Source: Escherichia phage EscoHU1
Length of the DNA stretch: 64,000 nucleotides
Sequence record: NC_133119.1
Strand: one strand, 5' to 3'
A program made the position numbers and the translations under genes. Shown one piece after another: positions 1-13,887 of this stretch; within the stretch, counting starts at the first letter, position 1; each line of letters opens with the position of its first letter. The notes beneath the pieces were generated by a model. That model had not been told where the DNA came from and searched no databases. It saw nothing but the letters and a program-made list of their open reading frames with translations.

Positions 1-61
1 GCCCAGAGGTTCCCTAGATGAGAATGAGTCTCATTACCGCCCCGGTACTTAGCAAGCTAAT

Positions 62-96
62 AGTCACACCATGTTATCATTACACAGTGTGACTAT
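62..96. other. Hairpin at window left edge (8-bp stem AGTCACAC/GTGTGACT, 15-nt loop) followed by T-run on plus strand
   Basis: Inverted repeat read directly; function unknown. Confidence 0.3.
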
Positions 97-110
97 TTTA
101 TTTTTAATTG

Positions 111-845
111 TTAGGCAACTTTTAATTTATCAATGAATTGTTGCGGCGTGGTACTATATTCCGCGCGTTCTTCCTCGGTCATACCTTCCCAACACATTTT
201 TAAACGTTCGGCTAGGAATTGATAATCGTTATCATCATCTAACGATTCATCAATAAAGGTTTCACCGATCAATGTTACCCCGATTGATAGGATATCGTTA
301 ACGGCTTGAGCGTCCAGCGTTTTAAATCCAGCATTTGCCGCCGCCGATAATACACCTTTATGATCATCAATCATTGTAAAATCAGCGTTCGGGTATAGCT
401 GTTTAAACAGTTCAAAGTAATAAGATTTATATACAGCGTCTTTGCTGTGGTATATTTCGCTAACCTTATCCGCATCAAAGTATTTATGCAAAGTATCGCG
501 GGAAAATACGCGAATATTACTATTTCCGCGCCCTCTTAGACTTTGTTTACGCAAGAAATAATAATCAGATTTACCCATTAAGCGAGCGGTACAAATAAGG
601 TTTAAGGTATTGGGATCATTCATACATTGGCGCATATATTCAACCAATGGTAATAAGGAATCCTGCATAATTAATTCATGTTTGCAGGCTTCGCGGGAAT
701 ACTTAACTAAATCTAAATTCCCGTTATCGTCAAAGCAAGGCGCTACACGATGGAAAGAATTTATAATCGTTCCGTCTAAATCCCAAATCATAACGCGGGA
801 AATATGCGGGAAAGTGTGGGTAATATTCATGTTGACTTGATTCAT
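111..845 (-). CDS. dmp: 5'-deoxyribonucleotidase (HAD-family phosphatase), T5 dmp-like
   Basis: 244 aa ORF; HAD motif IWDLDGTI near N-terminus; size and leftmost position match T5 dmp. Confidence 0.75.
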   Translation of the reverse strand: MNQVNMNITHTFPHISRVMIWDLDGTIINSFHRVAPCFDDNGNLDLVKYSREACKHELIMQDSLLPLVEYMRQCMNDPNTLNLICTARLMGKSDYYFLRKQSLRGRGNSNIRVFSRDTLHKYFDADKVSEIYHSKDAVYKSYYFELFKQLYPNADFTMIDDHKGVLSAAANAGFKTLDAQAVNDILSIGVTLIGETFIDESLDDDNDYQFLAERLKMCWEGMTEEERAEYSTTPQQFIDKLKVA

Positions 846-932
846 TTGTTACATTCTCCATTTAAGGGATTTAGGTTAATTCAATCTTGCCAGCTAATTA
901 TATTAGATTAGCTGGCAATGTTCAATTAACTA

Positions 933-1325
933 TTAGAACGCCAGACCAAAAGCGAGAGCATCGGCGATAAAGCTAAGATCTTCACCATGTACACTAGAGC
1001 GAATCCCCGCGCAAGTGTAAACCATCGCGCTAGCTTCGGGATTGCAAACCGGACACGGCTTAACAACCGCAAACGCTAGACCGGATTTAAGCGCATCAAT
1101 AATAATTGTTTGCACTGTCAAAGTATCAGCGTAAACGCCTTTTGCTTTTGTATGGCTTGCCACTTTGCCGGTATCATAAGCAAAGGTAGTAACCTGCAAA
1201 GCGTCGTTATAATTCAGCAAATCAAAATTAACTTGCCCCGCTTCGACGTGGTAACGTTCGCCATTAGAATAAACTAGAACGATGGAAGAAGTAGCACGAT
1301 CAAAAGGAATGTTTTGGTTTTTCAT
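933..1325 (-). CDS. hypothetical pre-early protein
   Basis: 130 aa ORF, no overlap. Confidence 0.5.
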   Translation of the reverse strand: MKNQNIPFDRATSSIVLVYSNGERYHVEAGQVNFDLLNYNDALQVTTFAYDTGKVASHTKAKGVYADTLTVQTIIIDALKSGLAFAVVKPCPVCNPEASAMVYTCAGIRSSVHGEDLSFIADALAFGLAF

Positions 1326-1359
1326 GTTTATGACTCCAGATTATTTATATTTACGGGAT

Positions 1360-1638
1360 TTATTGAAAAAATACGTTTAAAGATAAATCAATTTTACGAA
1401 AGTATGTTTCGTCGCCGTCTTTCCTTTCTTGATTAAGGTAATCGCCTGTCATTACCTGAATAGAATCTTTTCCGAAAAAGATCATATTTTCGCCAATATT
1501 ACTATCCCATACGGCATACATTCCCGCGTACATCCCACGGGTAACTAAATAAACGAAACTATCAAAAGACATTTCAGACCATGCAATATCTTCTAAACAA
1601 TTGCTATCGGGGATAGATATATTAATTTTACTAGCCAT
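1360..1638 (-). CDS. hypothetical pre-early protein
   Basis: 92 aa ORF. Confidence 0.45.
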   Translation of the reverse strand: MASKINISIPDSNCLEDIAWSEMSFDSFVYLVTRGMYAGMYAVWDSNIGENMIFFGKDSIQVMTGDYLNQERKDGDETYFRKIDLSLNVFFQ

Positions 1639-1690
1639 TTAATAAACCTTTTATTAATGGCGGTATATTTCAACCGCCGATTAAATTTAA

Positions 1691-3355
1691 TTATGCAAAG
1701 AATTTACCGTTTTTGAAATCAATCAAAGTACGTTGCCCGTTTGCATAGGTAATTAAATGCGTTTGCGTCCAGCTTGACGCGCCCACGTTGTAACCCATAT
1801 CAAGCGACCCCGCCACGCCAGCGGTATAAACGCCGCCGTAAATGCTAGCCGTATGAGTATGACCAGTGTTAAGGCGTCCAAGTTTCTTAAACTGCTTAGG
1901 ATTGCCCCGACTGCCGTTAATGCCATTGTGACCATGTACGCCGCACTCAATGCCAGCGATTTTAAATGACTGGTCAGTAGTCAGGAAAATAGCGTTAAAT
2001 TCGCAACCTGCAACGTTTCTAAGCGCGTAATCTAGCACGTTAAAGGTATCATCCTTTTCAGCAATAGCGGCGTAAATCGCAGCGTTTAGACGGTGATACA
2101 ATTCCGCGTTTGCGGGATCGTCTTTAATGTTAGCGTTACGATCATCAAGCCAGCGTGAAAGAGCTAAATCATGGTTAGATTCCACAATGATTGTTTGAGA
2201 GAAATCACGCTCCATTGATTCTAATACGCGTCCAGTATCGATAAGATCATCAATAACTTTATCACGTCCTGCGGCGTACTGTTTAGCAAGGAATACACCA
2301 CTAGCGCGGTTGTGATGGTTGCGCGATGTAAAATCATGCACATCATGAATAAACTGATATTTAGGCTTGAGAATATCAAGCAAGCTGTTTTCACTAGCCC
2401 ATGATGCAACGGCGCAATCATCATCTAATTTTTCGGCGTGAATATCGCCATATTGCAAGCCTAGAACATGATCGGACGTTTTATAACATCCGGTAGGAGT
2501 AGCGCAAACATTCAAATCATAGAACATTCCGCTTTCATCCATTGTTTCAAGCTGGCGAACGAAAAATTCTCCGTCGTCGTCGAACTCCACCAGCAAAGCG
2601 CCGAAATTATGCAGAGCCTCAGCTTTTTGACCTGCTTTCTGCTGAATGTAGTTTTTAAGCGTAGCCGTTCCGGTTGAATACATACGGCGCACTACTTCAC
2701 CTTTTAACGCTGGCACACTTTCAGCGGTGATTTTAGCGTGACCTATTGCCAGCCCTTCAATATTTAAAGCCGTGGCGGTTTCTGCGAATCCTGAAAGCGG
2801 ATAATCTGCCGTTGGTAAAACGTTAATTTCAGCCATGAAAGCAAAGCGGCGGTTATTCAGGAAAACATTTTTATCGCAGATATATTTATCAAATGCGGGA
2901 TCGTATTTGATTCCTTCTGCACCTTCCCCGTTCTGGAATCCATTTTTATTATAAATGAATTTACTAATCAGCAATTCAGCACCGATATATTCAGCAAATT
3001 TTTCCAGACTTGCTAAAAAGTTTTTATGCGGGAAAGTATTATTTTGAATCGACGTTAGAATAAAACGGCGACCGGATTTAACTTCCCATTGTTCAACGGT
3101 ACTAGAAACAATTCCCGCCGCTTCGGGGCGATCATCATTTTTAATCGCCTTTTCAGCTTTTGCCGCTTTCGGTTTCGCTGGCTTGTTTGCTTCCAGCCAA
3201 TCACAAATCGCGGTTGAATGTTTCGGCGTATCATAAACAGCTTTTGAAATATCGTCGCAAACTTCCAATTTAGTAGCGCGTAAACGCTTACCGTAGAAAT
3301 TAAAATCAGCGGCCATTTTCAAAATTTGAGCTTGTTTTTCTGCGGAAATATTCAT
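1691..3355 (-). CDS. A1: A1-like pre-early protein (calcineurin-like metallophosphoesterase motifs)
   Basis: 554 aa ORF; GDIHAE and ESNHDL motifs; size and position match T5 A1. Confidence 0.7.
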   Translation of the reverse strand: MNISAEKQAQILKMAADFNFYGKRLRATKLEVCDDISKAVYDTPKHSTAICDWLEANKPAKPKAAKAEKAIKNDDRPEAAGIVSSTVEQWEVKSGRRFILTSIQNNTFPHKNFLASLEKFAEYIGAELLISKFIYNKNGFQNGEGAEGIKYDPAFDKYICDKNVFLNNRRFAFMAEINVLPTADYPLSGFAETATALNIEGLAIGHAKITAESVPALKGEVVRRMYSTGTATLKNYIQQKAGQKAEALHNFGALLVEFDDDGEFFVRQLETMDESGMFYDLNVCATPTGCYKTSDHVLGLQYGDIHAEKLDDDCAVASWASENSLLDILKPKYQFIHDVHDFTSRNHHNRASGVFLAKQYAAGRDKVIDDLIDTGRVLESMERDFSQTIIVESNHDLALSRWLDDRNANIKDDPANAELYHRLNAAIYAAIAEKDDTFNVLDYALRNVAGCEFNAIFLTTDQSFKIAGIECGVHGHNGINGSRGNPKQFKKLGRLNTGHTHTASIYGGVYTAGVAGSLDMGYNVGASSWTQTHLITYANGQRTLIDFKNGKFFA

Positions 3356-3463
3356 AACTAAATCAACTCCTATAAAGGGATAAATATTAATACTGGCAAT
3401 ATTGCCAAATATAACGCCTTGCCTGAAGTGAGGACAATTTAAAAGGCGTTATAATTTGCAATA

Positions 3464-3709
3464 TTATTCTAGAATTGGCATAAGACTAGAACTAAACCCG
3501 CAACTAATAGCCAGCGTTAAAAATATAATCGCCAGATATTTTTGTTTATTAGCTTGACGTTTAAACATATCAGCGGCATAAGCTGAATTAATGCCGATAA
3601 TAGAGATTATATATTTGCCGTAATTAAATATAAATATAGCGGCAACTATAAATAAACCTAAAATAAACGCTTCACTAGGAAAGAAAATCATTTTAATAAC
3701 TCCGGTCAA
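3464..3709 (-). CDS. small hydrophobic protein
   Basis: 81 aa ORF with two hydrophobic segments. Confidence 0.4.
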   Translation of the reverse strand: MTGVIKMIFFPSEAFILGLFIVAAIFIFNYGKYIISIIGINSAYAADMFKRQANKQKYLAIIFLTLAISCGFSSSLMPILE

Positions 3710-3720
3710 AGGGAAATTAT

Positions 3721-3740
3721 AGCGGGGAATATTCCCCGCT
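3721..3740. terminator. hairpin AGCGGGGAATATTCCCCGCT between minus-strand genes
   Basis: Perfect palindrome; same motif family as 7003-7023. Confidence 0.4.
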
Positions 3741-3749
3741 AATTAAAAT

Positions 3750-4166
3750 TTATTCACCTGCGGCCTGTTTCACTTCCTCCGCTACGCCTAACAATTGCGC
3801 CACGGCTTCCAGCGTTTCCAGTTTTGCACTTTCCAGACTTGCCAGATCATCAGCGTCTTTAATAACGCCAGCATCAATGGCATGTTTAGCCATAACGCGC
3901 ACATAGTGAGCTTTACGGACACTAGACCCGCCGCCAACTTTACGCGGTTTATCGCTTTTCTGGTACGCTTTTGCGCTTGTCAGTTTAGAACGTACAGACA
4001 CCGGACTAGCAGCGCCAACGGCGGCGGCAATTTCTTTTAAGCCGTCACTATTCGCAAACTCAATCCCGCTTTTAGCGACCATTTCAGAATACATAGAAAC
4101 AGCCTTTTCGGTGTTTTCTTCGTTCCAAGAAAATTTTGCGGTTTTTTCGGTTTTAACGTTAGACAT
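3750..4166 (-). CDS. A2: A2-like pre-early protein
   Basis: 138 aa basic/acidic ORF directly downstream of A1; size matches T5 A2. Confidence 0.55.
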   Translation of the reverse strand: MSNVKTEKTAKFSWNEENTEKAVSMYSEMVAKSGIEFANSDGLKEIAAAVGAASPVSVRSKLTSAKAYQKSDKPRKVGGGSSVRKAHYVRVMAKHAIDAGVIKDADDLASLESAKLETLEAVAQLLGVAEEVKQAAGE

Positions 4167-4266
4167 AATTTAATACTCCATTCAATTATTAATTAAGGGA
4201 TTATGATTAACTAATGTTAATCCATATATTCCCCATATTTCAGGGGAATATAAAAGTAACACTAAT

Positions 4267-4518
4267 TTATGCTATGGCTTGCCATTTATCATCTTTCTGA
4301 ATGACCTTTACAACGTCGCCAGATTTAACACGGACGTTATAAATCGGCTTGCCGTTGTTGCTACGTTCCGTTTCCGCGTAAACCGCTTCGATTTTATCGA
4401 AAGGATCAAGCGCCGCACCTTTGATACGTTCGGCTTTTCCGGTTAATTCATCAGTTTTAGTTACAAAAGGAATGAAAACAGATTGACCTACTTTCGGCGC
4501 GGTAATAACGTTTTGCAT
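4267..4518 (-). CDS. hypothetical protein
   Basis: 83 aa ORF. Confidence 0.45.
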   Translation of the reverse strand: MQNVITAPKVGQSVFIPFVTKTDELTGKAERIKGAALDPFDKIEAVYAETERSNNGKPIYNVRVKSGDVVKVIQKDDKWQAIA

Positions 4519-4682
4519 TTTTAATACTCCGGTTTATTGGGGATTATTCCACAATAGCGCCTCGATACTTTGAAACGCTATTAGATTATAATCCGCTAGG
4601 AGTTAGCCTAAACATTACCGTTATCCAAATTTTTAAAGAGCAGTTACTACGGGGAACATCTTAAAACCTATCGGCTAGCGTG

Positions 4683-4901
4683 TCAAGCGTTTTTTAAACT
4701 TTTTTCGATTTGATGTGAGTTATATAAATCAATCATTATATTACGCCACACCATTTCCAGCCCTTGTTGCTTGCCTTTCTTGTATTGCTTGAATCTGTAT
4801 TTTACAGATCGTTGCGCTACTGTCAACAAATTTTTTGTTCTGCTATCCAGTGGGCTAGCAGGTTTCGCACTAATCACTAAAGCGTTTTTTGATTTGATCA
4901 T
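4683..4901 (-). CDS. hypothetical basic protein
   Basis: 72 aa ORF. Confidence 0.3.
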   Translation of the reverse strand: MIKSKNALVISAKPASPLDSRTKNLLTVAQRSVKYRFKQYKKGKQQGLEMVWRNIMIDLYNSHQIEKSLKNA

Positions 4902-5287
4902 TATCGTCGATTCCTTATATTATATAAGTTTACCGCCGATAGGCTTTAAGATATTCCCTAATTTTTAAAGAGCATGGCGGTAAACTTCCCCGCCGTTGTA
5001 GTCTGGCCTTTCGTTTCCGTCTTGCCGTCCTACGAGATAAATAATAGGTTATTCCCGAAAATGGCGCAAGCATATTTTTGTAAAGAAACGTAAAGAAAAC
5101 CACTACTCGCAAACGTCCAGCGGCGCACTAAATTTAATGAAACGGGCGCGCGAATAACACCAAAACAACCATTTTAGCAAGTAATTTTTTCATTTATATT
5201 TGCTTTGCCCTACTTGACAAAATCTAAAATCCTCGTGGTGAGGTTTTCTCGGTGTACCCCTTATGATTGCCTATCTTTTCCTTTGAG

Positions 5288-5319
5288 GCGCTTAGAATCG
5301 CTTACAGAGCGTTTTAGAC
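5288..5319. repeat. 32-bp repeat copy 1 (GCGCTTAGAATCGCTTACAGAGCGTTTTAGAC)
   Basis: Near-identical copy at 9065-9096. Confidence 0.6.
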
Positions 5320-5647
5320 CCTGTTAATAACTTATACAAAAAGCAAAAATGAAATTTAATGAATTATCCACTTGATTTTTCAAAAAAGTATTTTCTGCTG
5401 TTATTTTTCATTGACAAATAAGTTTAGGCGTGTATCAGACCCTTAGCAGACTAACAATCGCTAGGATGATAATCACGCTGGTGGATTGTAACAGCCGAAA
5501 CAGTTAGCAGACTATTAATACTCTAAAAACCTATTAGCCAACTAACTATTTCATATTATATAATATACTTATAAATTAAAGAGAAATAATAACTATAAGA
5601 AACTATCGGCTAAGTGAGAACCACTATCATTTAGGTTATTCACAAAG

Positions 5648-5656
5648 TTATCCACA
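5648..5656 (+). promoter_or_regulatory. DnaA box TTATCCACA
   Basis: Perfect 9-mer consensus. Confidence 0.5.
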
Positions 5657-5696
5657 GCACAAAATAACTTGACGCAATAGGCGACGTTTTGGCGAC

Positions 5697-5705
5697 TTAT
5701 CCACA
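5697..5705 (+). promoter_or_regulatory. DnaA box TTATCCACA
   Basis: Perfect 9-mer consensus, 49 bp from the first. Confidence 0.5.
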
Positions 5706-5725
5706 GACTTATGTACAGGTTATCC

Positions 5726-5745
5726 TACTGTATAAATATACAGGG
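5726..5745. promoter_or_regulatory. LexA-box-like palindrome (CTGT-N8-ACAG core)
   Basis: TACTGTATAAATATACAGGG; core CTGTATAAATATACAG fits the SOS box. Confidence 0.45.
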
Positions 5746-5992
5746 TAGAATGGTAGCAGTAACAACCGCAATCAAATTTAAGCGGCCTAAAACGCGTTCT
5801 AAGCGGTTTTTCAGCATTACCCCTTATTATAATAAAGCCTTGTGTACGCTTACAGAGAGCTAGAAATAGAAAACGCGCGGTTAGCACAAAAATAGGCAGT
5901 AGGCAAGGAATAAAAAACCTTTTCTTTTTTCTTGCCCCTAGCGAACAAATATCTATATCATTCACTCACCGATTAACGAGGGAGACAAAGAA

Positions 5993-6994
5993 ATGTCTAC
6001 TGTAAGAATTGCAGTACCAACAAACGCAACTATTATTAAAGGTAGTTTGCGCAACCTGCTAGATGGTAGTAGTGCGGCAAGTATTCAGCACACCGCCGCA
6101 ATGGTTGAAAAAATTCACGAGGATATTTTAGATAATAATGATACTCATTATTCAGTCGATGATTTCACGCTATTACTAGACCAGACAAGGGCGCTAGTAA
6201 TTTTCAACCGTGATTATCACATTTTCCGTAATAGTCGTGGAACTGATATTGATTTTATCATTGTTGGTTATAGTGAGTCTCATAATGGTTACATTGCGCG
6301 ATTATATAACGTGCAAGAAAAAGAGCAGGTAACAGCAACAAAAGTAAATAGTATCAGGCTTGATAGTGTCGGGTCGTTATTAAATAGTATCTGGCGCGAA
6401 TTATCGTCAAGCTATAAAGGCGCGGATAGTGACGCAATCGAAACAACTGGCGTATTGTGTTTTGAACGCGCTAGCGGTAACATGTTGATTCCTGACGATT
6501 ATTTAGGGTACGGGAATGAATCAAACGTTGCAAACGCTGGATTTACATTAAAACCGCTTGACAACGTAGCAAAACAGGCTGTAGAATCTCAAACTTCAAG
6601 CGCAAATGCGCAAACTACTGAAAATAAAGGAAATATTATGTCTAAAGTATCTTCTATCGTTGCTGCTAATAAATCCGCCGTTGTAAACGCTGCTAAATTG
6701 GAAGCGGGTAAAATTGCACTGACTCAAATCACAAAAGTAGCGGCGAAAAAAGCGCCGTTTATGATTAAAGGGTATATTGATACGCCGATTGGTCGCGTAG
6801 TGATCGCTAACCTGCTGAGTGTAGCGGTTGACCAGTACGCCCCGACTAATGCGAAAGCGAAAGCGGTAGCAGGCGCGGCAATGGAAGCGGCAATGTTGGA
6901 AATGGTACAGAGTTTCAATATTGCGGAAATGATCGATGAAATGGTAAAAGGTATTGACATTTCTACTTTTACCAATAACACCGAAAGCGAGTAA
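5993..6994 (+). CDS. hypothetical protein (plus-strand gene in terminal-repeat region)
   Basis: 333 aa ORF; GAGGGAGA RBS 8 nt upstream of ATG. Confidence 0.55.
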   Translation: MSTVRIAVPTNATIIKGSLRNLLDGSSAASIQHTAAMVEKIHEDILDNNDTHYSVDDFTLLLDQTRALVIFNRDYHIFRNSRGTDIDFIIVGYSESHNGYIARLYNVQEKEQVTATKVNSIRLDSVGSLLNSIWRELSSSYKGADSDAIETTGVLCFERASGNMLIPDDYLGYGNESNVANAGFTLKPLDNVAKQAVESQTSSANAQTTENKGNIMSKVSSIVAANKSAVVNAAKLEAGKIALTQITKVAAKKAPFMIKGYIDTPIGRVVIANLLSVAVDQYAPTNAKAKAVAGAAMEAAMLEMVQSFNIAEMIDEMVKGIDISTFTNNTESE

Positions 6995-7002
6995 TAATAA
7001 CT

Positions 7003-7023
7003 AGCGGGGATTATTTCCCCGCT
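7003..7023 (+). terminator. rho-independent terminator
   Basis: AGCGGGGA-TTATT-TCCCCGCT hairpin then TTTACTATTT. Confidence 0.55.
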
Positions 7024-7059
7024 TTACTATTTCCCTGCTAATTAATAGGAGACTAATTA

Positions 7060-7554
7060 ATGTCAGAAGAAAAATATGGCTTTTCGCTAGAAAGTGTGAA
7101 TGAAGCTAAACACGATATGATCGTTTTAGTTGATTGTCATACTGGTTATTGCGGGGAGGGCTGGACGGAAGAACATTTTGTTCCCGCTGGCTGTGATCTG
7201 GATGCTTTCGCAAACGAACACGCATATGATAATGCTTCTCGTTTCGGTAGCGATGGGGAAGAAGATGAAGAAACAGGGGAATGGATTGAAAATGATAATG
7301 TATATGCGAGTCTTTATCATTATCAATTGAGTAAGTCCGGTACTTATGTAAATGGCGGCGATCCTATTAATATCGTTATGAAACTAATTATTAAACACGG
7401 TGGCGCGGAAATAATTGGTAACAAGGCGTTATTATACGCAAACCGATTAAAACAGCTTGTTTATATTCCTGATAATTCCCGTTGGGATGAATATGCCGTT
7501 TTACAGAAAGAATTAAAACGCTGTTTCGGCGTGGAAGCATTAGAAATAGTCTAA
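7060..7554 (+). CDS. hypothetical acidic protein
   Basis: 164 aa ORF. Confidence 0.5.
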   Translation: MSEEKYGFSLESVNEAKHDMIVLVDCHTGYCGEGWTEEHFVPAGCDLDAFANEHAYDNASRFGSDGEEDEETGEWIENDNVYASLYHYQLSKSGTYVNGGDPINIVMKLIIKHGGAEIIGNKALLYANRLKQLVYIPDNSRWDEYAVLQKELKRCFGVEALEIV

Positions 7555-7663
7555 TGTAAAGTTTTGTAAAGGTCGCTTTAATCGGCGGCCTTTTTTGTTA
7601 TAATGCCTTTACACCGAAACGGTGGATTGAAAATTTTCCCAAAATTTTTTGGAGGCGTTAAAA

Positions 7664-7894
7664 ATGGTTGCTTTCTCTTCTTCTGACTCTCTTTTCACTG
7701 GTAAAGGTTGGGTATCTAATCGCTGGATCATTGATCAAATGGTTTCGGAATTTGGGATAGGTAAAACTTATGTTACTATTCAGGCGCTTTATGATAATGA
7801 TCAGATTGACCAGCAAACCGCCGGATTTTTGCTGGACACGTTGAAATCAGAACATTGCACCAAAAAGCAAGCGGCAAAAATCGTTTTAATGTAA
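7664..7894 (+). CDS. hypothetical protein
   Basis: ATG preceded by GGAGG; start trimmed from track ORF 7649. Confidence 0.45.
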   Translation: MVAFSSSDSLFTGKGWVSNRWIIDQMVSEFGIGKTYVTIQALYDNDQIDQQTAGFLLDTLKSEHCTKKQAAKIVLM

Positions 7895-7947
7895 TTAATA
7901 ACGGGGCGTTACTTTCGCCCCTCATTCCCTAACTAGGAGTTAAGCAA

Positions 7948-8160
7948 ATGTTAAAGAATGTTTCCCTTGCCCGTTCTAAAGGTTTTAAGCTGGTGGATGT
8001 TAACACGTTCGAGCGTCCAGATTGTAAAATCGAATATGTAGCACGCAACAAAAACGCTTTCCGTGTTACAGAAAAGAAATTTGACAAGCGCGGAAATTTG
8101 GTAGCCGAAACGGTTAAACACTTTGCCACCTTTTACGCTGCGTTTCGTGGGGTGTTATGA
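7948..8160 (+). CDS. hypothetical protein
   Basis: 70 aa ORF with AGGAG RBS. Confidence 0.45.
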   Translation: MLKNVSLARSKGFKLVDVNTFERPDCKIEYVARNKNAFRVTEKKFDKRGNLVAETVKHFATFYAAFRGVL

Positions 8161-8269
8161 GATCCTTATATATTGCTCTAGCGTTTGCTACCGTTGGCGT
8201 TGTATGTTCCGTCGCCGCATTTGTTTTAAAAATGTACCTGATATTTTCCCAGCTTTAGGAGCTTGACAA

Positions 8270-8617
8270 ATGGTTATTTACGAGGGCAATCGTTTTGTTG
8301 CTAATTGCCGTCCGGCATTATTAGCAAACTATTTAAATCAGCTTTCACCAGTTTATAAAGGTGTGGTTAATATCTATGAAGGCAAAGCACATTATAAAAT
8401 TTCTGCCGTTGTCGCTCGCGAGCTTGCCTTTCAGTTTCTTACTTTTAACTCATGCGATATTCAGGTTATGGGTGAGTCATTAGTAGCAGAAAATGAAAAT
8501 GAATTTATTGACATTTTCCGCAAAGTATGTACCGAGCGCCTGATTATGAAAGGCGCATATATTCAATCAACCGCTGATAGTATTGAAACAGCGTTTCGAA
8601 AAATTGCATATGAATAG
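8270..8617 (+). CDS. hypothetical protein
   Basis: 115 aa ORF with AGGAG RBS. Confidence 0.5.
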   Translation: MVIYEGNRFVANCRPALLANYLNQLSPVYKGVVNIYEGKAHYKISAVVARELAFQFLTFNSCDIQVMGESLVAENENEFIDIFRKVCTERLIMKGAYIQSTADSIETAFRKIAYE

Positions 8618-8740
8618 CTGGTGGCGTAAAACGCAAAGTCACAAATCTAATAATACCGCTGGGAAACATTCCCAGCGTTTACGATTTGGTAATGGCTTCA
8701 CAATGATATTGATAATCATTCTCATTCTAGGAGCAATGGC

Positions 8741-8980
8741 ATGGCTGTAAGAATTTTACGATATGTAGAACGTAAAGAAACCGATATTATGCAGCATCAT
8801 TTAACTGATGCGCAATATGCGCAATTTTTAGAAATGCAGAAAAGCGGAGCTAGTACGGCGGCGCTAGGGGCGTGGATCAATTCAGTTTCAATATGTACGC
8901 ATTTTGATTCATACGGATATACGCCAGCCGAAACCGTCCAGATCTTTGACGACTACGAGAAGGAATACATAGCAGACTAA
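8741..8980 (+). CDS. hypothetical protein
   Basis: 79 aa ORF with AGGAG RBS. Confidence 0.45.
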   Translation: MAVRILRYVERKETDIMQHHLTDAQYAQFLEMQKSGASTAALGAWINSVSICTHFDSYGYTPAETVQIFDDYEKEYIAD

Positions 8981-8986
8981 TAATAA

Positions 8987-9008
8987 CGGGGCGCAACTAC
9001 CGGCCCCG
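8987..9008 (+). terminator. rho-independent terminator
   Basis: CGGGGC-loop-GCCCCG hairpin then CCTTTTCT. Confidence 0.55.
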
Positions 9009-9064
9009 CCTTTTCTGGCCTTCCTCAAATTTCCCCTTGTAAAATACCTCCTCCAAAAATAAAC

Positions 9065-9096
9065 GCGTTAGAATGCGTTACAGAGCGTTTTAGAGC
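9065..9096. repeat. 32-bp repeat copy 2
   Basis: Matches 5288-5319. Confidence 0.6.
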
Positions 9097-9124
9097 TATA
9101 TTAGAGCTATTCACTACACAGGAA

Positions 9125-9144
9125 TACTGTATAAATATACAGTA
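9125..9144. promoter_or_regulatory. LexA-box-like palindrome TACTGTATAAATATACAGTA
   Basis: 20-mer one base from E. coli SOS-box consensus TACTGTATATATATACAGTA. Confidence 0.5.
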
Positions 9145-9152
9145 GAATAACC

Positions 9153-9173
9153 TGTTGATAAGTCTGTTGATAA
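9153..9173 (-). promoter_or_regulatory. tandem DnaA-box-like 9-mers (TTATCAACA x2)
   Basis: TGTTGATAAGTCTGTTGATAA on plus strand; one mismatch to consensus each. Confidence 0.4.
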
Positions 9174-9264
9174 CGCCTCAAAATCGCTAGGATTTTGTCA
9201 GGTCAAATCGTGCTGTTAATAAACCTGTGAATAAATTAAATAACAGTGTTTCTCACTTCACTTT

Positions 9265-9415
9265 GTAAATGCGAGTCATTCTCGTTATCATTCGCGTTTC
9301 CCTTCCTAAATGCAAATCATTCTCATTCGTATTCCGGTAGTCAAATGATAACCATTCTCATTCGCATTCAACTTCTCAAATGCGAATCAATCTCATTATC
9401 ATTCGCATTTTGGCA
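9265..9415. repeat. about 4 direct repeats (~38 bp unit, AAATGCGAATCATTCTCATT...CATTCGC)
   Basis: Units start near 9269, 9310, 9343, 9381; each has internal TGCGAAT/ATTCGCA inverted repeat. Confidence 0.6.
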
Positions 9416-9447
9416 GGCAGGGCATTTTCATTTTGCCCTGCGCTTTT

Positions 9448-10049
9448 GTGCAAATCCGACATTTGCCCCCACGGATTACGTGCCAGCGTGCATGTGCGAA
9501 TCCGACAATTTTTGGTAGTGTGCAAATCCGATGGCAAATATTTTTTATATGTGCGAATCCGACAATGAATTTTCCTAAAAACTCCAGCAATCACGAGTGC
9601 GGCTCGATTCCTGTGGAATTAGCTAGAATATGCGCAGAACCGACAAGCGTTAAGGTGTGCGAATCCGACAAGATTTTTGTGACTTCGATGAGAGGGTGTG
9701 TAATTGTGTGAGTTTGTGGGAGAGTTGATGCAGCGAGAGAAAATTAGAGGAGAAACTGGAGGGTGCAGCTGTGGTGGCGTGAAACGCCTGGTTTGCTGCG
9801 TTTTTGGGGATAATGTGGGATGTTTTGGGATAATTGGGCATGGAGCGAGATAAAGTGAAATTTTATTAGCAAAATGGGGCAAAATCGCTTGACAAGTGAA
9901 AATTCCTGTGGCTCTAAAAACTCAGGCAAACATGGGCCTTCGGCCCGAAATAATGCTGCTATTTTCAGTGTTCATAAAAACTTTGGAGACTCCTATCAAT
10001 GTGCAAATCCGACCATAAATTTCTAGAAACACAGTGTGCAAATCCGACA
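9448..10049. repeat. iteron array: 14-mer GTGCRAATCCGACA in at least 8 copies (presumed first-step-transfer / injection-stop region)
   Basis: Copies at 9448, 9494, 9519, 9551, 9633 (variant), 9657, 10001, 10036; irregular spacing. Confidence 0.65.
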
Positions 10050-10445
10050 GTAATTTCCAGACTGACAAGAGTCAATTATTTTTCCTAGAAATAACCGCCC
10101 TCCCTATAACCGCCCTGTATTAAACCGCCTATTGCTGGAGTTTCTAGGAACATGAAAACCGCCTGAGTTGGCGAGAGAAACAGATTTAAAGTTTAGTGTA
10201 AACTCTAGAGTTAGTGCTCAACTATTCCTAGAAACTTAGGAGTCTAGAGGAAAGTATTGTGCCATCCTAGCAGATGAGCGGCAACCGGTGTATCATCTTG
10301 AACACAAATATTGCCTTTAAATATTATAAGGTAAGTAAAAGTTAATATACCCCCATTTCATGAGAGTTAGCCCCTCTAGGCGCGTGCGATTTAGTACTAT
10401 CATTTTGGTTCTCGTGAGAAAGAACATATTCTAGAACCACTCCTG
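10021..10445. repeat. dispersed TTCTAGAAA-like palindromic motifs
   Basis: Copies near 10021, 10085, 10143, 10235, 10431. Confidence 0.35.
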
Positions 10446-10596
10446 ACGTCGGAACCTATCAATGTTTTTCTTTGAGAAATGCTATTATAATCTACGGCCT
10501 AGAGGTAAAAACAAGTTGATGTTTTTAATCTATGAGATTATTATAACACATTATTCTCACGAATGTCAAGCATATTTCGTTACTTTTAAATTTTTG

Positions 10597-11325
10597 TCAT
10601 GAGTTTGGAGTTGGGTAAATTTTTATGCAACCTTGACTTAATAGATATTCTTCTGCCTCCACAGCCTTAACGTTGAATATCTCTTTTGCTCCATCGAATT
10701 TATAATGGTTAGCAAATTTGTTCTCGAAGAATTTATGTGCTTGATGCTCTAGTTTATAAGCAAGTTCTTTCGATCCTTTCTTATATTGATAGATACCAAA
10801 TACTTCCATATCTTCGAAACCAGGCACACGCAGTTTATCATACTCTAGATTCTTAAACCTTTGATGTGGCTCTCTAGAAACTCCAATCTTTGTCTTTAAT
10901 TTCTTCCTAGACTGATCTTTATTAGAGAAAATATAGAGATATGTAGGAAACTGAACATCCTCTTCTATTTCAGGTTTCTCTATAGGTGTGTTGAGGTTGC
11001 TTTCTCTAGCACATTGTAAACAGCCGTGCCCCTCTAAGTGGGATCTAGCAGTTTGCATAAAATAACCTTTATGCTTGTAACACCATATCTCTACTAGTTG
11101 GGTGGCTGTTTTATACTTAACTCTTTCGTACCCATATTCTTCTTTCTGGACTTTCAAAGCTTTCTTAATAAAGATAAGGTTTAATGCTTCTTGCTGGAAG
11201 TCTGGGTGAAGTTGTCTAATCTTTGTTATATTGGTAGAACCATTTGACTTCAAAAAGTTTTTAAGAGGAAACTTCCTGGCTTCCTCTCGTAGCTTTTCAT
11301 TTATCTCACTGCGTAAATCATCCAT
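10597..11325 (-). CDS. GIY-YIG-like (T5orf172-type) domain protein with N-terminal Cys/His motif
   Basis: 242 aa ORF; PTYLYIFSNKD...KIGVS resembles GIY-YIG/T5orf172 core; HLEGHGCLQCA. Confidence 0.45.
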   Translation of the reverse strand: MDDLRSEINEKLREEARKFPLKNFLKSNGSTNITKIRQLHPDFQQEALNLIFIKKALKVQKEEYGYERVKYKTATQLVEIWCYKHKGYFMQTARSHLEGHGCLQCARESNLNTPIEKPEIEEDVQFPTYLYIFSNKDQSRKKLKTKIGVSREPHQRFKNLEYDKLRVPGFEDMEVFGIYQYKKGSKELAYKLEHQAHKFFENKFANHYKFDGAKEIFNVKAVEAEEYLLSQGCIKIYPTPNS

Positions 11326-12043
11326 CTTTATTAACCTTTAGAATAACTCCTTTTGATGTCATGAAAAGGAATGTCGCTAAATAAGACGCTTCAGAGTTAA
11401 GGGAGGAATAATCCACATTTCCCCTAGGTCTAGTATCTTGTTCAGAGTCAAGAATTGTTGATACATCAAACTTAACAGACTTCGCAATTATTAGGGCTTG
11501 ATCTTGATCACGTAAGATCTCATAATGAGCTGCTAGCAGTGTTGGAGTAGCCTCAACATTGCTATCGATTATACTTAAGTGTAATTGTGCAAGTGTAGAT
11601 ACTATTCCTAGCTTTAGCTCAGACAATGATGAATATGGAGCTGCTGTGAACTTTTGAAGTCTAGGAAGATGGTCATACTCACATTTCTTCGGTGGGATCA
11701 TTAAGATGTTAGGATAACATTCTAATGCTGTCTTTGCTGATCCTTCCTTAAAACGTGGGAGTTCTATATCTGCAAATACATGATATGAATTAGCCGAGAA
11801 TCCTTTAATAGTTGGATCTACTGTTTGGATTAGGCGACGTAAACTTATGTAAGAAGCTGCTAAGGTAACTTCTTCGCAATCTTTATTATACTTAGGCTGT
11901 CCACTGGCGTCTAAGTATGCTGGATAAAATTCTGAACAAAATGCTACTGCATGGGCTTCTAATTCATTAAGTTCAGAGACACGTTTGCCGTTACAGCCCT
12001 TTGCGAGGCTGATAATTTCTGCTAAGTTCTTTTTAATACTCAT
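11318..12043 (-). CDS. hypothetical protein
   Basis: 241 aa ORF, 8-nt overlap with downstream gene. Confidence 0.5.
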   Translation of the reverse strand: MSIKKNLAEIISLAKGCNGKRVSELNELEAHAVAFCSEFYPAYLDASGQPKYNKDCEEVTLAASYISLRRLIQTVDPTIKGFSANSYHVFADIELPRFKEGSAKTALECYPNILMIPPKKCEYDHLPRLQKFTAAPYSSLSELKLGIVSTLAQLHLSIIDSNVEATPTLLAAHYEILRDQDQALIIAKSVKFDVSTILDSEQDTRPRGNVDYSSLNSEASYLATFLFMTSKGVILKVNKDG

Positions 12044-12651
12044 TAACGACCTCTACCAGCTTTATCTGCATCAATAGCTTCGAACACTTTCGTTAACATT
12101 TCTTCAAGCTCTCCTTCTTTGCTAGGATTGCTCAAACGGATAGTGTATGAATTCCTAGAAACTCCGGAGTCTTCTTGTGCTCCGCGATCTTTTGCAAAGC
12201 TCATCATTGCAACGCCAGCTTTATTACACTCGTCTACGCTAGATGCTTCCCCAAACTTATATGATTGTGTATTGCTTACCACGCCACCACAAGGAACATT
12301 GTGCAAATCCGACATTAATCTTTTATCAGAATTAGTCAGAGCAGTAATATGCCAAGGATCAGTACGAGGAATAGTTGTAGTACTCGGGCGGTTCACCTCA
12401 GTCTTCACAAGTTTGTATCCAGCATCGATTAGTGCATTAATCAGATTATCAGCTGGGATGCGAGCCGTGCCGAAGATCTTACGAGCATTCATGAGCTTAG
12501 CCTGAAACTCTTTACAAGCCTGAATATCAATGTGCAAAAACGACAGTTGCATAGATTTAAACTGTACTGTAGCAGTCAGATCTTTAAAGCTGTAATCCCA
12601 TGTATCAAGTTCATGATCTGCAACTACTTTAATGGTTTGTTGTGTAAACAT
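12043..12651 (-). CDS. hypothetical protein (iteron-like 14-mers inside coding sequence)
   Basis: 202 aa ORF; GTGCAAATCCGACA at 12301 and variant at 12532. Confidence 0.5.
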   Translation of the reverse strand: MFTQQTIKVVADHELDTWDYSFKDLTATVQFKSMQLSFLHIDIQACKEFQAKLMNARKIFGTARIPADNLINALIDAGYKLVKTEVNRPSTTTIPRTDPWHITALTNSDKRLMSDLHNVPCGGVVSNTQSYKFGEASSVDECNKAGVAMMSFAKDRGAQEDSGVSRNSYTIRLSNPSKEGELEEMLTKVFEAIDADKAGRGR

Positions 12652-12836
12652 TATCTATTCTCCGGTTTATCTAATAGCTTACGAGCTGCGATATTATGTT
12701 GTTTAATTTCTCGGTTAAGAATCTCATTCTCACTATTCAATTCTAGATTCTTAACATTGAGGCGACTGCATACAATTATCAAGCCTAGAATGGTTAAGAG
12801 TGAGCCACCTAGTAATACAAGAAGTAGTGTTTCCAT
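12651..12836 (-). CDS. small membrane protein
   Basis: 61 aa ORF with N-terminal TM segment. Confidence 0.35.
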   Translation of the reverse strand: METLLLVLLGGSLLTILGLIIVCSRLNVKNLELNSENEILNREIKQHNIAARKLLDKPENR

Positions 12837-12866
12837 AGCTTATCCCTTATTTTAGTATACACGAAA

Positions 12867-12890
12867 GGCCAGAACAATTAAGTCCTGGCC
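12867..12890 (-). terminator. hairpin GGCCAG-loop-CTGGCC after gene stop
   Basis: Inverted repeat; weak T-run. Confidence 0.35.
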
Positions 12891-12897
12891 TCTAGGA

Positions 12898-13281
12898 TTA
12901 GTGAAGTTGCTTGCCGTTTAAGGCCATATCAGCAGTTTCCAGAAGAGATTCGGTAATCTCACGAGAAACTAGATATTCATCAATTGAGTGGCGGCGTTTA
13001 AAGGCATAAGCATTAACAATCAGATCTAGAGCACCAAGAACATCATGAACAGTTACTTCTTCATCATTATCTAGCTCTTCTTGGGTAATCTCGATTAACT
13101 GGCCAACTGCCATTAAAAGCCCAAGAATATCTGCTGTTTCACTTGCCACCAGCGGATTAGCACATCCTACTGTAAGATCGAAAGCATGATTGACAATTGA
13201 CTGCCCATCAACGCTTCCTTCCTCAATCTGCTTCTCCAACTGCTTCATCTGCTCTAGCACTGGATTTTTCTTTTGTGTCAT
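12898..13281 (-). CDS. hypothetical protein
   Basis: Start moved to internal Met (MTQKKNPV) to reduce overlap. Confidence 0.45.
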   Translation of the reverse strand: MTQKKNPVLEQMKQLEKQIEEGSVDGQSIVNHAFDLTVGCANPLVASETADILGLLMAVGQLIEITQEELDNDEEVTVHDVLGALDLIVNAYAFKRRHSIDEYLVSREITESLLETADMALNGKQLH

Positions 13282-13690
13282 GGTAAAGATTTCCTGTATC
13301 AGTGGGAAGGAATGCCGATTGTGCCTTCGGCGGATGTTGTTTAGCAATCCAGTTGAGGATCAGTACACGGCTAGGAACGATATCGGTGTTATACCAGAAG
13401 TCATGAACCCAATGTCGTGCATCTTCGAACTTACCGAACTTATACGCTTTCTTAAACAGTTCAAAACCAAAACAATCAGGTGCAAAATCTACATCACGAT
13501 AAGGAATTACCTTAGAACCGGTGAGATCTTGAATCGCTGCGTTAATCTCTGTATGTGAGAACTTCGTCTCATGGAAAGTATTAAAGAAGCGGTAGTTAAA
13601 ACGTCCGTTCGTTTCGACAAACAACTGGATGAATAAATCATTAAATTGGCCATCAAACCAGTAATTCTGTAATCTTTGCAGTGCTGTCAT
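13223..13690 (-). CDS. hypothetical protein
   Basis: 155 aa ORF. Confidence 0.5.
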   Translation of the reverse strand: MTALQRLQNYWFDGQFNDLFIQLFVETNGRFNYRFFNTFHETKFSHTEINAAIQDLTGSKVIPYRDVDFAPDCFGFELFKKAYKFGKFEDARHWVHDFWYNTDIVPSRVLILNWIAKQHPPKAQSAFLPTDTGNLYHDTKEKSSARADEAVGEAD

Positions 13691-13887
13691 TTACGAACTC
13701 CATTTATTGCTGCGATAACGCCTTCATACATGAAAGGAAGAACTTGTGAAATGTGGAAATCTTGAACTGTCCAACCAGCTTCTTGGTACATAATGTTAAT
13801 GATTGCACAACTTAACATAAAGGCTGGTAGAACTATAAAGTAATCCCACGTTGCTTTCTGCAAGTTAGGGTTATAAAAATTAATCAT
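13687..13887 (-). CDS. small membrane protein
   Basis: 66 aa ORF. Confidence 0.4.
   Translation of the reverse strand: MINFYNPNLQKATWDYFIVLPAFMLSCAIINIMYQEAGWTVQDFHISQVLPFMYEGVIAAINGVRK

What the first reader, a model, noticed from the sequence alone, without database searches (positions are those of the whole stretch)
10597..12836. Compact gene module immediately inside the repeat boundary, with iteron copies embedded in a coding sequence
Three translationally coupled ORFs plus a small membrane ORF follow a terminator hairpin at the distal end of the early operon. The first has a GIY-YIG/T5orf172-like core and a Cys/His motif. The 202-aa ORF contains the iteron 14-mer exactly (12301) and a variant (12532) inside its coding sequence, so one sequence serves as both codons and a likely protein-binding site. 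Placement and content look like an accessory or mobile module.
Basis: partly seen in the sequence, partly recalled or inferred. Interest (0 to 1): 0.5.

Follow-up and report, generated by a model that had tools for sequence, protein, structure and literature searches.

The report
Terminal-repeat iteron conserved inside phage gene
In this T5-like phage, one exact copy of a short DNA repeat that normally clusters around the end of the terminal repeat sits inside a conserved but dispensable gene and has been kept letter-for-letter across relatives, so the same 15 bases probably serve as codons and as a protein-binding site; the surrounding "module" is an ordinary operon end with one mobile nuclease gene added.

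Summary
The window is the left end of Escherichia phage EscoHU1, a T5-like phage. The described features are real. Four overlapping minus-strand ORFs (61, 202, 241, 242 aa) follow a strong hairpin. The 242-aa product has a T5orf172 domain. The 15-mer TGTGCAAATCCGACA occurs exactly at 12300-12314 inside the 202-aa ORF.

This 15-mer is the known but functionally unassigned DRD repeat of T5 Repeat Region 3. Eight copies flank the inferred terminal-repeat end (about 9914).

The in-gene copy is not chance:
- It lies at the same codons (S-D-L/M-H) in 27 of 28 related loci, T5.019 included.
- Those codons never vary synonymously, although they use rare codons.
- Its few variants are ones also seen in non-coding copies.

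The second copy (12531) is specific to this lineage.

The block is not one mobile module. ORF61 and ORF202 (T5.020/T5.019) are near-universal in T5-like phages and dispensable in T5 by knockdown. ORF241 is one of two alternative genes at its slot. Only ORF242 shows the sporadic distribution of a homing-endonuclease-like insertion.

The factor that binds the repeat, and its function (packaging cut or DNA-injection control), remain inferred. I rate this a new, coding-embedded member of a known repeat family, of moderate interest.

The parts
12651..12836 (-). ORF61, homologue of T5.020; small single-pass membrane protein; first gene after the hairpin
   Evidence: (phrog_5799, E 5e-35). Always directly upstream of the ORF202 homologue in 29 loci.
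12043..12651 (-). ORF202, homologue of T5.019. A protein family found only in T5-like phages. The N-terminal 135 codons are conserved; the C-terminal third is mosaic.
   Evidence: AlphaFold2 mean pLDDT 55.8; only residues 17-86 are modelled with moderate confidence.
12300..12314 (+). Exact DRD iteron copy inside ORF202, read on the opposite strand as codons (A)TG TCG GAT TTG CAC A(AT) = M-S-D-L-H-N
   Evidence: 0 mismatches; same place in 27 of 28 loci; no synonymous variation; rare codons; 28.5 bits, the maximum score.
12531..12545 (+). DRD-like variant TGTGCAAAAACGACA (2 mismatches), lineage-specific
   Evidence: 18/20 match to 9994-10013 including the flank; only in the window and L003-L005; 4-6 mismatches in the other loci; 19.4 bits, at the low end of the range of real copies.
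12152..12172 (+). TTCCTAGAAACTCCGGAGTCT, a copy of a second boundary-region motif (TTYCTAGRAA family) inside ORF202
   Evidence: only 6 TTYCTAGRAA sites in 64 kb, 4 of them at 10020-10234; present in ORF202 of 11 of 29 loci, so only partly conserved.
11318..12043 (-). ORF241, phrog_8993, function unknown; variable slot that holds a T5.018-type gene in other phages
   Evidence: AlphaFold2 mean pLDDT 56.8, uninformative.
10597..11325 (-). ORF242: T5.023-like N-terminal domain with a Cys/His motif (nt 11008-11325) fused to a T5orf172 (GIY-YIG superfamily) nuclease domain (nt 10648-10941); sporadically distributed, homing-endonuclease-like
   Evidence: PF10544, 28.2 bits; phrog_4605 on residues 1-144; phrog_681 endonuclease.
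12864..12893 (-). Stable hairpin between the upstream 149-aa gene (T5.025 homologue) and ORF61; putative partial terminator and mosaic breakpoint
   Evidence: dG -19.9, z -4.6; T5 annotates the equivalent as a putative terminator; identity to L003 drops from 97.8% to 91.7% here.
9447..9670 (+). Six non-coding DRD iterons inside the terminal repeat (starts 9447, 9493, 9519, 9550, 9631, 9656)
   Evidence: T5 has the same start-to-start spacings of 46, 26, 31, 81 and 25 nt.
10000..10049 (+). Two non-coding DRD iterons just outside the terminal repeat, in unique DNA
9806..9920 (.). Conserved block that abuts the inferred right end of the terminal repeat (about 9914)
   Evidence: T5 LTR ends at 10219, equivalent to window 9914. 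(the only stretch alignable with Klebsiella Sugarlandvirus phages; it ends 14 nt before the annotated repeat end of IME260).

Best explanation
The region is the distal end of the leftward early operon of a T5-like phage. It holds a near-universal gene pair (T5.020/T5.019 homologues), a variable gene (ORF241) and an inserted T5orf172 homing-endonuclease-like gene (ORF242).

Inside the T5.019 homologue lies a true outlying member of the DRD iteron family. The main DRD arrays flank the right end of the terminal repeat about 2.3 kb away. The copy is kept by selection on the DNA itself, on top of selection on the encoded peptide S-D-L/M-H. The 15 bases therefore do double duty, as codons on one strand and as a recognition site for the same sequence-specific factor that reads the boundary arrays.

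Shown: identity with the family, same orientation, conserved position, absence of synonymous change, and use of rare codons.

Inferred: that a protein binds the site. My preferred reading of the iterons as a whole is also inferred. They mark the terminal-repeat right boundary for the machinery that cuts or handles DNA there. The most likely candidate is terminase recognition at packaging initiation. Control of the stop and restart of two-step DNA injection is nearly as likely. In either case the in-gene copy would be a distal auxiliary site.
For: Family and chance: the exact 15-mer lies at 12300-12314, and the family is far above chance. T5 has 9 non-coding copies plus one in T5.019, and none elsewhere in its first 65 kb.

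Conservation of position: the copy sits at the same codons in 27 of 28 IMG/VR loci whose proteins are 54-82% identical to the query.

Nucleotide-level constraint:
- TCG, GAT, CAC, AAT and GTT are invariant in 29 coding sequences. Leu is always TTG.
- The adjacent conserved residues P, C, G and G do vary synonymously.
- This is the only run of 5 invariant degenerate codons in the gene. About 31% of such columns are invariant, which gives p of about 0.002 for a site chosen in advance.
- S-D-L-H would be encoded this way with probability 0.0015 under the window's codon usage.

Variants fit the family: in-gene copies score 21.1-28.5 bits, against 18.4-28.5 for 89 distinct non-coding copies. The common in-gene variant TGTGCATATCCGACA also occurs in non-coding copies of Klebsiella phage IME260.

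Link to the repeat boundary: the arrays flank the annotated terminal-repeat end in two genera. T5 and the window have 6 copies to the left and 2-3 to the right. IME260 has 5 to the left and 6 to the right.

Context: the predicted structure places the iteron codons in a low-confidence linker next to indel-rich sequence.

Gene content and variability.
Against: - There are no binding data of any kind.
- 16 of 29 in-gene copies carry a central A-to-T change (L to M), and one locus (L029) has 3 mismatches. The exact sequence is therefore not indispensable.
- The peptide S-D-[LM]-H-N-V-P-C-G-G is itself conserved, so part of the DNA conservation comes from protein constraint.
- The 29 sequences are phylogenetically related, so the p-values are rough.
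- The distance from the in-gene copy to the boundary arrays varies from about 1.3 to 2.6 kb.
- Sugarlandvirus phages have the arrays but no T5.019 homologue and no distal copy within 7.4 kb. A distal site is therefore not generally required.
- The choice between packaging and injection rests on the position of the arrays and on general knowledge. That knowledge is that the DNA end injected first is packaged last, and that pac/cos sites are often flanked by repeated terminase-binding motifs. No test done here bears on it.
Confidence: 0.6

Rival explanations
1. The in-gene match is a passive by-product. An ancestral sequence happened to resemble, or derived from, a DRD copy. It is now held only by selection on the peptide S-D-[LM]-H-N-V-P-C-G-G and by shared ancestry, and has no cis-acting role.
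For: - The peptide motif is conserved together with the adjacent P-C-G-G, which evolves like ordinary coding sequence.
- 16 of 29 copies deviate at the centre and one locus has 3 mismatches.
- Spacing to the arrays is not conserved.
- Sugarlandviruses do without a distal copy.
Against: - There is no synonymous variation at five consecutive codons that use rare codons (TCG 4.8%, TTG 11.6%), while the neighbouring conserved residues do vary.
- The deviations are confined to variants also found in non-coding copies (TGTGCATATCCGACA...CCGATG...CCGACG/C).
- An exact 15-mer has a chance expectation of about 1e-4 per window.
Confidence: 0.25
2. One reading: the whole four-gene block is an accessory or mobile cassette inserted next to the repeat boundary.
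For: - The block lies between two mosaic breakpoints, at about 12850 and at the non-coding region.
- ORF242 is a sporadic T5orf172 nuclease gene.
- ORF241 alternates with another gene.
- T5.018, T5.019 and T5.020 are scored 'Not Fit' in the CRISPRi-ART screen of T5 (PMC11879866, supplementary file 16).
Against: - ORF61 and ORF202 are present and adjacent in all 29 loci and in about 97% of T5-like records.
- The N-terminal 135 codons of ORF202 are collinear and conserved in every lineage.
- Only ORF242 shows a presence/absence pattern consistent with mobility.
Confidence: 0.08
3. The iterons are replication-origin repeats, as for the lambda ori iterons inside gene O, and ORF202 encodes or overlaps the origin.
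For: The repeats are direct and all in one orientation. The left half TGTGCAAAT differs by one base from the relaxed DnaA box TGTGNAWAA (by inspection). DnaA boxes are reported nearby (Davison, bioRxiv 10.1101/866236).
Against: - ORF202 holds one conserved copy, not a phased cluster.
- The ORF202 family is absent from Sugarlandviruses, which have the same arrays, so it is not the cognate binder.
- According to the literature cited by Davison, T5 origins map near the genome centre.
- T5.019 knockdown has no fitness cost.
Confidence: 0.04
4. The motif acts at the RNA level. Plus-strand transcripts that carry DRD copies could pair with the complementary 15 nt in the ORF202 mRNA and regulate it.
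For: The complementarity is a perfect 15 nt. A conserved strong promoter lies in the region.
Against: - That promoter fires on the minus strand, so it produces the same sense as the mRNA, not the antisense.
- No convincing plus-strand promoter was found across the arrays.
- No Rfam family matches.
- Eight to eleven tandemly spaced copies in non-coding DNA are more typical of protein binding.
Confidence: 0.03

Closest known systems
DRD direct repeats of T5 'Repeat Region 3' (injection-stop-signal region); described by Wang et al. 2005 and Davison 2015 as cited in Davison 2020, bioRxiv 10.1101/866236
   Same: Same 15-nt consensus TGTGC(A/G)AATCCGAC(A/C), same strand, and the same array with identical spacing in T5 and in the window.
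   Different: The literature I could read counts nine copies, all non-coding, and assigns them no function. The copy described here is a tenth, 1.7-2.3 kb further into unique DNA, inside T5.019 and its homologues, and is constrained together with the reading frame.
Packaging recognition sites that lie within genes or are flanked by repeated terminase-binding motifs (P22 pac in gene 3, P1 pac in pacA, SPP1 pacL/pacR, lambda cosB R sites); from my own knowledge, not tested here
   Same: Short repeated motifs lie on both sides of a genome-end cut site. There is precedent for such motifs overlapping coding sequence.
   Different: No terminase binding or cut mapping exists for T5 DRDs. All copies are in one orientation. 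The in-gene copy lies about 2.4 kb from the cut. The same region is also the classical injection-stop locus.
Lambda-type replication origins with iterons embedded in the initiator gene (ori inside gene O); from my own knowledge
   Same: Direct repeats that double as codons.
   Different: In lambda, a phased cluster of four repeats sits inside the gene for its own binding protein. Here there is one conserved copy in a dispensable gene that cannot be the general binder, because the gene is absent from Sugarlandviruses that have the arrays.
Free-standing homing endonuclease genes of T-even and T5 phages (seg/mob genes, T5 heg genes) and T5orf172-domain proteins (Pfam PF10544)
   Same: ORF242 has the T5orf172 domain above Pfam's threshold. 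It is inserted between conserved neighbours with overlapping stop and start codons, and its distribution among close relatives is patchy.
   Different: Its N-terminal half is a homologue of the widespread stand-alone gene T5.023, at 65% identity. Neither nuclease activity nor a homing site was tested.

Membership tests
DRD iteron family of T5-like phages | Match to the 15-nt consensus within the score range of accepted copies | tested here: met
   The copy at 12300-12314 scores 28.5 bits, the maximum. In-gene copies in relatives score 21.1-28.5 bits, against 18.4-28.5 for 89 distinct non-coding copies.
DRD iteron family of T5-like phages | Same orientation as the array | tested here: met
   All copies in the window, T5, IME260 and the 28 loci lie on the same strand relative to the terminal repeat.
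DRD iteron family of T5-like phages | Conserved across relatives beyond what coding alone requires | tested here: met
   Present in 27 of 28 loci. There is no synonymous change in 29 coding sequences, and rare codons are used. The p-values are rough because the sequences are related.
DRD iteron family of T5-like phages | Location within the clustered array around the terminal-repeat end | tested here: not met
   The copy is isolated, 2.25 kb from the nearest array copy (10035-10049) and inside a gene. The distance varies from 1.3 to 2.6 kb among relatives.
DRD iteron family of T5-like phages | Bound by the same factor as the array copies | not testable with these tools
   No binding factor is known for any DRD copy.
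T5orf172 / GIY-YIG-superfamily nuclease (ORF242) | Pfam PF10544 above the gathering threshold | tested here: met
   28.2 bits against a cut-off of 20, residues 129-226. PF13455 (MUG113) scores 24.6 against 22.3.
T5orf172 / GIY-YIG-superfamily nuclease (ORF242) | Core motifs: tyrosine-containing first strand, K-I-G, Arg, and a C-terminal Glu in G-x-x-E-(I/W)-F | tested here: inconclusive
   By inspection, YLYIF, TKIGVS, SREPHQR and GAKEIF are present. No structure or profile-column check was made.
T5orf172 / GIY-YIG-superfamily nuclease (ORF242) | Nuclease activity and a homing site | not testable with these tools
   An experiment is required.
Mobile or accessory gene module | Patchy presence/absence among close relatives, with clean insertion boundaries | tested here: not met
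   Met for ORF242 only: full-length in about 60 records and in 4 of 29 loci at this site. Partly met for ORF241 (17 of 29 loci). Not met for ORF202 and ORF61, which occur in all 29 loci and, for ORF202, in 438 records.
Replication-origin iterons embedded in a gene (lambda ori type) | Phased cluster of three or more repeats within the gene of the cognate initiator | tested here: not met
   There is one conserved copy plus one lineage-specific variant 231 nt away. The ORF202 family is absent from IME260, which has the arrays.
Phage packaging (pac/cos-type) recognition region | Repeated motifs that flank the genome-end cut site | tested here: met
   The arrays lie on both sides of the annotated terminal-repeat end in T5 (10219) and IME260 (10277), and by homology in the window (about 9914). 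The ends are taken from database annotation and were not mapped here.
Phage packaging (pac/cos-type) recognition region | Binding by the small terminase subunit and dependence of cutting on the motifs | not testable with these tools
   No data were found.

The most novel reading that the evidence does not exclude
The in-gene DRD copy is a working distal site. It would cooperate, for example by DNA looping or as a second loading point, with the iteron arrays at the terminal-repeat boundary, in either packaging initiation or restart of second-step DNA transfer. Because it sits in a dispensable gene, it can be altered by synonymous recoding without touching the essential non-coding region. That would give the first clean genetic and biochemical handle on the factor that reads these repeats, and so on the unresolved mechanism of T5 two-step injection and terminal-repeat processing.
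Probability: 0.25. Interest if true: 0.65.

Novelty: new member of a known kind. Interest (0 to 1): 0.4.

Why it matters
The repeats around the T5 terminal-repeat end have been known for decades and are highly conserved. Yet they have no assigned function or binding partner, and they lie in a cis-essential region that is hard to mutate. A conserved extra copy under joint coding and DNA-level constraint shows that the motif is selected as DNA even away from the array. It also offers a site where the motif can be destroyed by silent changes in a non-essential gene. Finally, the work corrects the picture of the neighbourhood: the gene pair T5.020/T5.019 is core, and only the T5orf172 gene looks mobile.

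Tried and rejected
- ORF202 protein function. Pfam, NCBIfam and PDB sequence searches found nothing. The AlphaFold2 model was poor (pLDDT 55.8) and Foldseek against PDB gave no hit below E = 0.78. An exhaustive HMMER search of 1.84 billion representatives found only the family itself plus spurious hits to long repetitive surface proteins.\n- ORF241. It has homologues only in T5-like phages. The AlphaFold2 model (pLDDT 56.8) was too poor to search with.\n- ORF242 against PDB sequences: nothing significant.\n- ORF202 protein as the iteron-binding factor: rejected. IME260 has the arrays but no ORF202 homologue.\n- Third boundary motif GGGCGGTT, also present in ORF202 (12386-12393): rejected as meaningful. 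Those codons (N-R-P) vary freely at synonymous sites. It serves as a negative control.\n- Second in-gene DRD (12531) as an ancient element: rejected. It arose in the window's sublineage.\n- Link to nick sites: the T5 major nick (GCGC, 9748/9749) lies 3 nt from the first DRD. However, the other annotated nicks in the first 65 kb have no DRD nearby.\n- CRP, sigma-54 and IHF consensus comparisons by eye: no convincing fit.\n- Rfam and tRNA scans of 8800-13400: no hit.\n- Literature searches for T5 pac or terminase recognition: nothing usable. Davison 2015 and Zivanovic 2014 are not held.
Full report
**Identity of the window.** The 202-aa product is 100% identical to EscoHU1_018 of Escherichia phage EscoHU1. 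At DNA level the region is 84-94% identical to many Epseptimavirus and Tequintavirus phages. Window position 68 aligns with T5 position 83, so the window starts at about the genome's left end. T5 annotates its left terminal repeat as 1..10219. The homologous point in the window is 9914, after ...cctgtggctc. Klebsiella phage IME260, of the genus Sugarlandvirus, shares only a 115-bp block with the window (9806-9920). That block ends 14 nt before its annotated repeat end at 10277. The finding therefore lies about 0.7-2.9 kb into unique DNA, at the distal end of the leftward (minus-strand) early operon.

**Observation check.** The four ORFs exist as described, with 1-, 1- and 8-nt overlaps.
- A stable hairpin lies at 12864-12893 (dG -19.9 kcal/mol, z = -4.6). 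It separates them from the upstream T5.025 homologue, where T5 annotates a putative terminator.
- ORF242 passes Pfam's threshold for T5orf172 and carries a Cys/His motif.
- The 15-mer TGTGCAAATCCGACA is exact at 12300-12314, and a 2-mismatch variant lies at 12531-12545.
- The family comprises 8 non-coding copies at 9447-10049 plus these two. It is far above chance: 12 hits with up to 3 mismatches against 1.8 expected.

**What the iteron is.** It is the DRD direct repeat of T5 Repeat Region 3, the region of the injection stop signal. Davison lists "nine DRD repeats" there, stresses their conservation and assigns no function (bioRxiv 10.1101/866236). A 2026 preprint still describes the region only as rich in repeats.
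- In T5 I find the nine non-coding copies (9752-10491) plus one copy with a single mismatch at 12153 inside T5.019. There is nothing else in the first 65 kb.
- The array spacing (46, 26, 31, 81, 25 nt; then 35 nt) is identical in T5 and in the window.
- Six copies lie inside the terminal repeat and two or three just outside it, so the array straddles the repeat end.
- IME260 has the same motif, 5 copies to the left and 6 to the right of its repeat end. The arrangement is therefore older than the T5-like subfamily.

**Is the in-gene copy more than coincidence?** I fetched 28 IMG/VR loci that encode ORF202 relatives at 54-82% identity.
- In 27 of them a copy with at most 2 mismatches lies at the same place in the gene.
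- In a codon alignment of 29 distinct coding sequences, the codons under the motif are invariant: TCG (29/29), GAT (28/28 Asp), CAC (29/29), AAT (29/29) and GTT (27/27 Val). Leu is always TTG.
- The next four conserved residues (P, C, G, G) use 2-4 codons each.
- Of 103 alignment columns with a conserved, degenerate amino acid, 32 show a single codon. The motif is the only run of five such columns, which gives p of about 0.002 for a site named in advance.
- The codons are not the preferred ones. TCG accounts for 4.8% of Ser codons, TTG for 11.6% of Leu and CAC for 35% of His. The joint probability of this encoding is 0.0015.
- A weight matrix built from 89 distinct non-coding copies scores the in-gene copies at 21.1-28.5 bits, within the non-coding range of 18.4-28.5. 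The window's copy has the maximum score.
- The deviations that do occur are TGTGCATATCCGACA (Leu to Met, 16 of 29)...CCGACG and ...CCGATG. All are variants also found among non-coding copies in IME260, T5 or the window.
- As a negative control, a GGGCGGTT boundary motif that also occurs in ORF202 varies freely at synonymous sites.

I conclude that the DNA sequence itself is under selection, together with the peptide.

Three caveats apply. The sequences are related. One locus (L029) has 3 mismatches. The distance to the array is not conserved.

**The second copy (12531).** It matches the copy at 9994-10013 in 18 of 20 positions, flank included. But it exists only in the window and its three closest relatives. 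In the other loci the homologous codons have 4-6 mismatches. It is either a recent gain or chance. I do not count it as established.

A further boundary motif, TTYCTAGRAA, has four copies at 10020-10234 and one at 12152 in ORF202. Only six occur in the whole 64 kb. The ORF202 copy is present in only 11 of 29 loci.

**The genes.**
- *ORF202 (T5.019 homologue) and ORF61 (T5.020 homologue).* They are adjacent in all 29 loci. ORF202 occurs in 438 phage records, against about 447 non-Klebsiella records that carry the repeat region. The family has no relatives outside T5-like phages, even in an exhaustive profile search. It has no Pfam, NCBIfam or PDB match.
- *ORF202 structure and mosaicism.* AlphaFold2 gives only a moderately confident small N-terminal domain. 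It places the iteron codons in a low-confidence linker beside indel-rich sequence. DNA homology among lineages stops at codon 135 (window 12246), and the C-terminal third is mosaic.
- *Dispensability.* In the CRISPRi-ART screen of T5, T5.018, T5.019 and T5.020 are all scored "Not Fit" (PMC11879866, supplementary file 16). The proteins are therefore dispensable in the laboratory.
- *ORF241.* It belongs to a family present in 289 records and 17 of 29 loci. In 11 loci a T5.018-type gene takes its place, with only weak similarity between the two.
- *ORF242.* It is full-length in about 60 records. In more than 400 records only its first 106 residues match, as the stand-alone gene T5.023 located upstream of T5.020 (65% identity, Cys/His motif included). 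The window lacks that upstream copy. ORF242 thus looks like a T5.023-type domain fused to a T5orf172 nuclease, with the patchy distribution of a free-standing homing endonuclease gene.

The "module" is therefore a composite: a core pair, one variable slot and one mobile-looking gene.

**Mechanism.**
- *Shown.* The in-gene site is a conserved, correctly oriented, high-scoring member of the boundary iteron family.
- *Inferred.* It is read by the same DNA-binding factor as the arrays.
- *Excluded.* T5.019 is not that factor, because IME260 has the arrays without any ORF202 homologue, and it has no distal copy either.
- *Packaging, my first choice.* The arrays flank the terminal-repeat right end in two genera. 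From general knowledge, the end injected first (the left end) is packaged last. Packaging should therefore begin with a cut at the repeat's right boundary, and terminase recognition sites are commonly repeated motifs that flank the cut, sometimes within genes (P22, P1, SPP1, lambda cosB).
- *Injection control, almost as plausible.* The first-step-transfer shear point maps within the DRD array.
- *Nothing here separates the two.* A distal copy could act as an auxiliary loading or looping site.

**Comparison and novelty.** The repeat family is known. In the literature I could access, a conserved tenth copy embedded in T5.019 is not mentioned, and neither are the synonymous-site constraint or the presence of the same arrays around the repeat end in Sugarlandvirus. 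I could not read Wang 2005 or Davison 2015. I classify this as a new member of a known kind. Interest is moderate. It will not surprise a phage specialist greatly, but it provides a tractable site for silent mutagenesis and a probe for finding the unknown binder.

Noticed in passing
window 10540-10569 (minus strand): A perfect sigma-70 promoter (TTGACA, 18 nt, TG-n-TATAAT; 12 of 12) lies just downstream of the ORF242 stop. It points towards the terminal-repeat boundary and the DRD copies. An equivalent TTGACA...TGTTATAAT or TGTTATCAT lies about 480-690 bp (mostly 480-525 bp) upstream of the first DRD in 21 of 29 loci, whichever gene precedes it. No gene, tRNA or Rfam family lies downstream. 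A terminator-like hairpin lies at 10174-10159.
   Followed up: partly
window 10085-10300: This is a highly conserved non-coding stretch between the promoter and the DRDs. It has an ~80-nt block (TTCAAGATGATACACC.GTTGCCGCTCATCTGCTAGGATGGCACA...), four AACCGCC repeats at 10093-10163, and four TTYCTAGRAA palindromic motifs at 10020-10234. It probably corresponds to the part of T5 Repeat Region 3 that extends into unique DNA.
   Followed up: partly
window 9806-9920; L033 2501-2617: This 115-bp block directly abuts the terminal-repeat right end. It is the only stretch of the region alignable by BLAST between T5-like phages and Klebsiella Sugarlandvirus phages (74-78% identity). It is a candidate for the actual end-processing signal.
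   Followed up: partly
window 9438-9461; T5 9748/9749: The annotated T5 major single-strand nick (GCGC consensus) lies 3 nt to the left of the first DRD copy. The window has the same ccctgcgcttttGTGCAAATCCGACA. Other annotated T5 nicks in the first 65 kb have no DRD nearby.
   Followed up: partly
L001 4744-5361 (Salmonella phage KKP 3953): The ORF202 homologue is broken into three ORFs (51, 107 and 66 aa) by two frame changes, yet it keeps the in-gene iteron (TGTGCATATCCGACA at L001 5000). This is either a pseudogene or sequencing errors.
   Followed up: partly
window 12837-12900 compared with T5 12695-13864: The window lacks the block T5.021-T5.024 that lies between the hairpin and T5.020 in T5 and most relatives. 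Its only T5.023-type domain is the N-terminus of ORF242, downstream of ORF241. L015 and L022 share this layout, and L016 has both copies.
   Followed up: partly
window 12246 (codon 135 of ORF202) and about 12850: These are recurrent mosaic breakpoints. DNA homology of ORF202 with most relatives ends at codon 135, about 54 nt past the iteron. Identity to L003 falls from 97.8% to 91.7% at the hairpin.
   Followed up: no
window 9447-9455 and other DRD left halves: The DRD left half TGTGCAAAT differs by one base from the relaxed DnaA-box complement TGTGNAWAA. This is by inspection only. The equally conserved right half CCGACA is not part of a DnaA box.
   Followed up: no
window 49756-49770: An isolated DRD-like site, TGTGGAAAACCGACA (2 mismatches, 16.8 bits), is the next best weight-matrix hit after the family. 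I did not examine it further.
   Followed up: no
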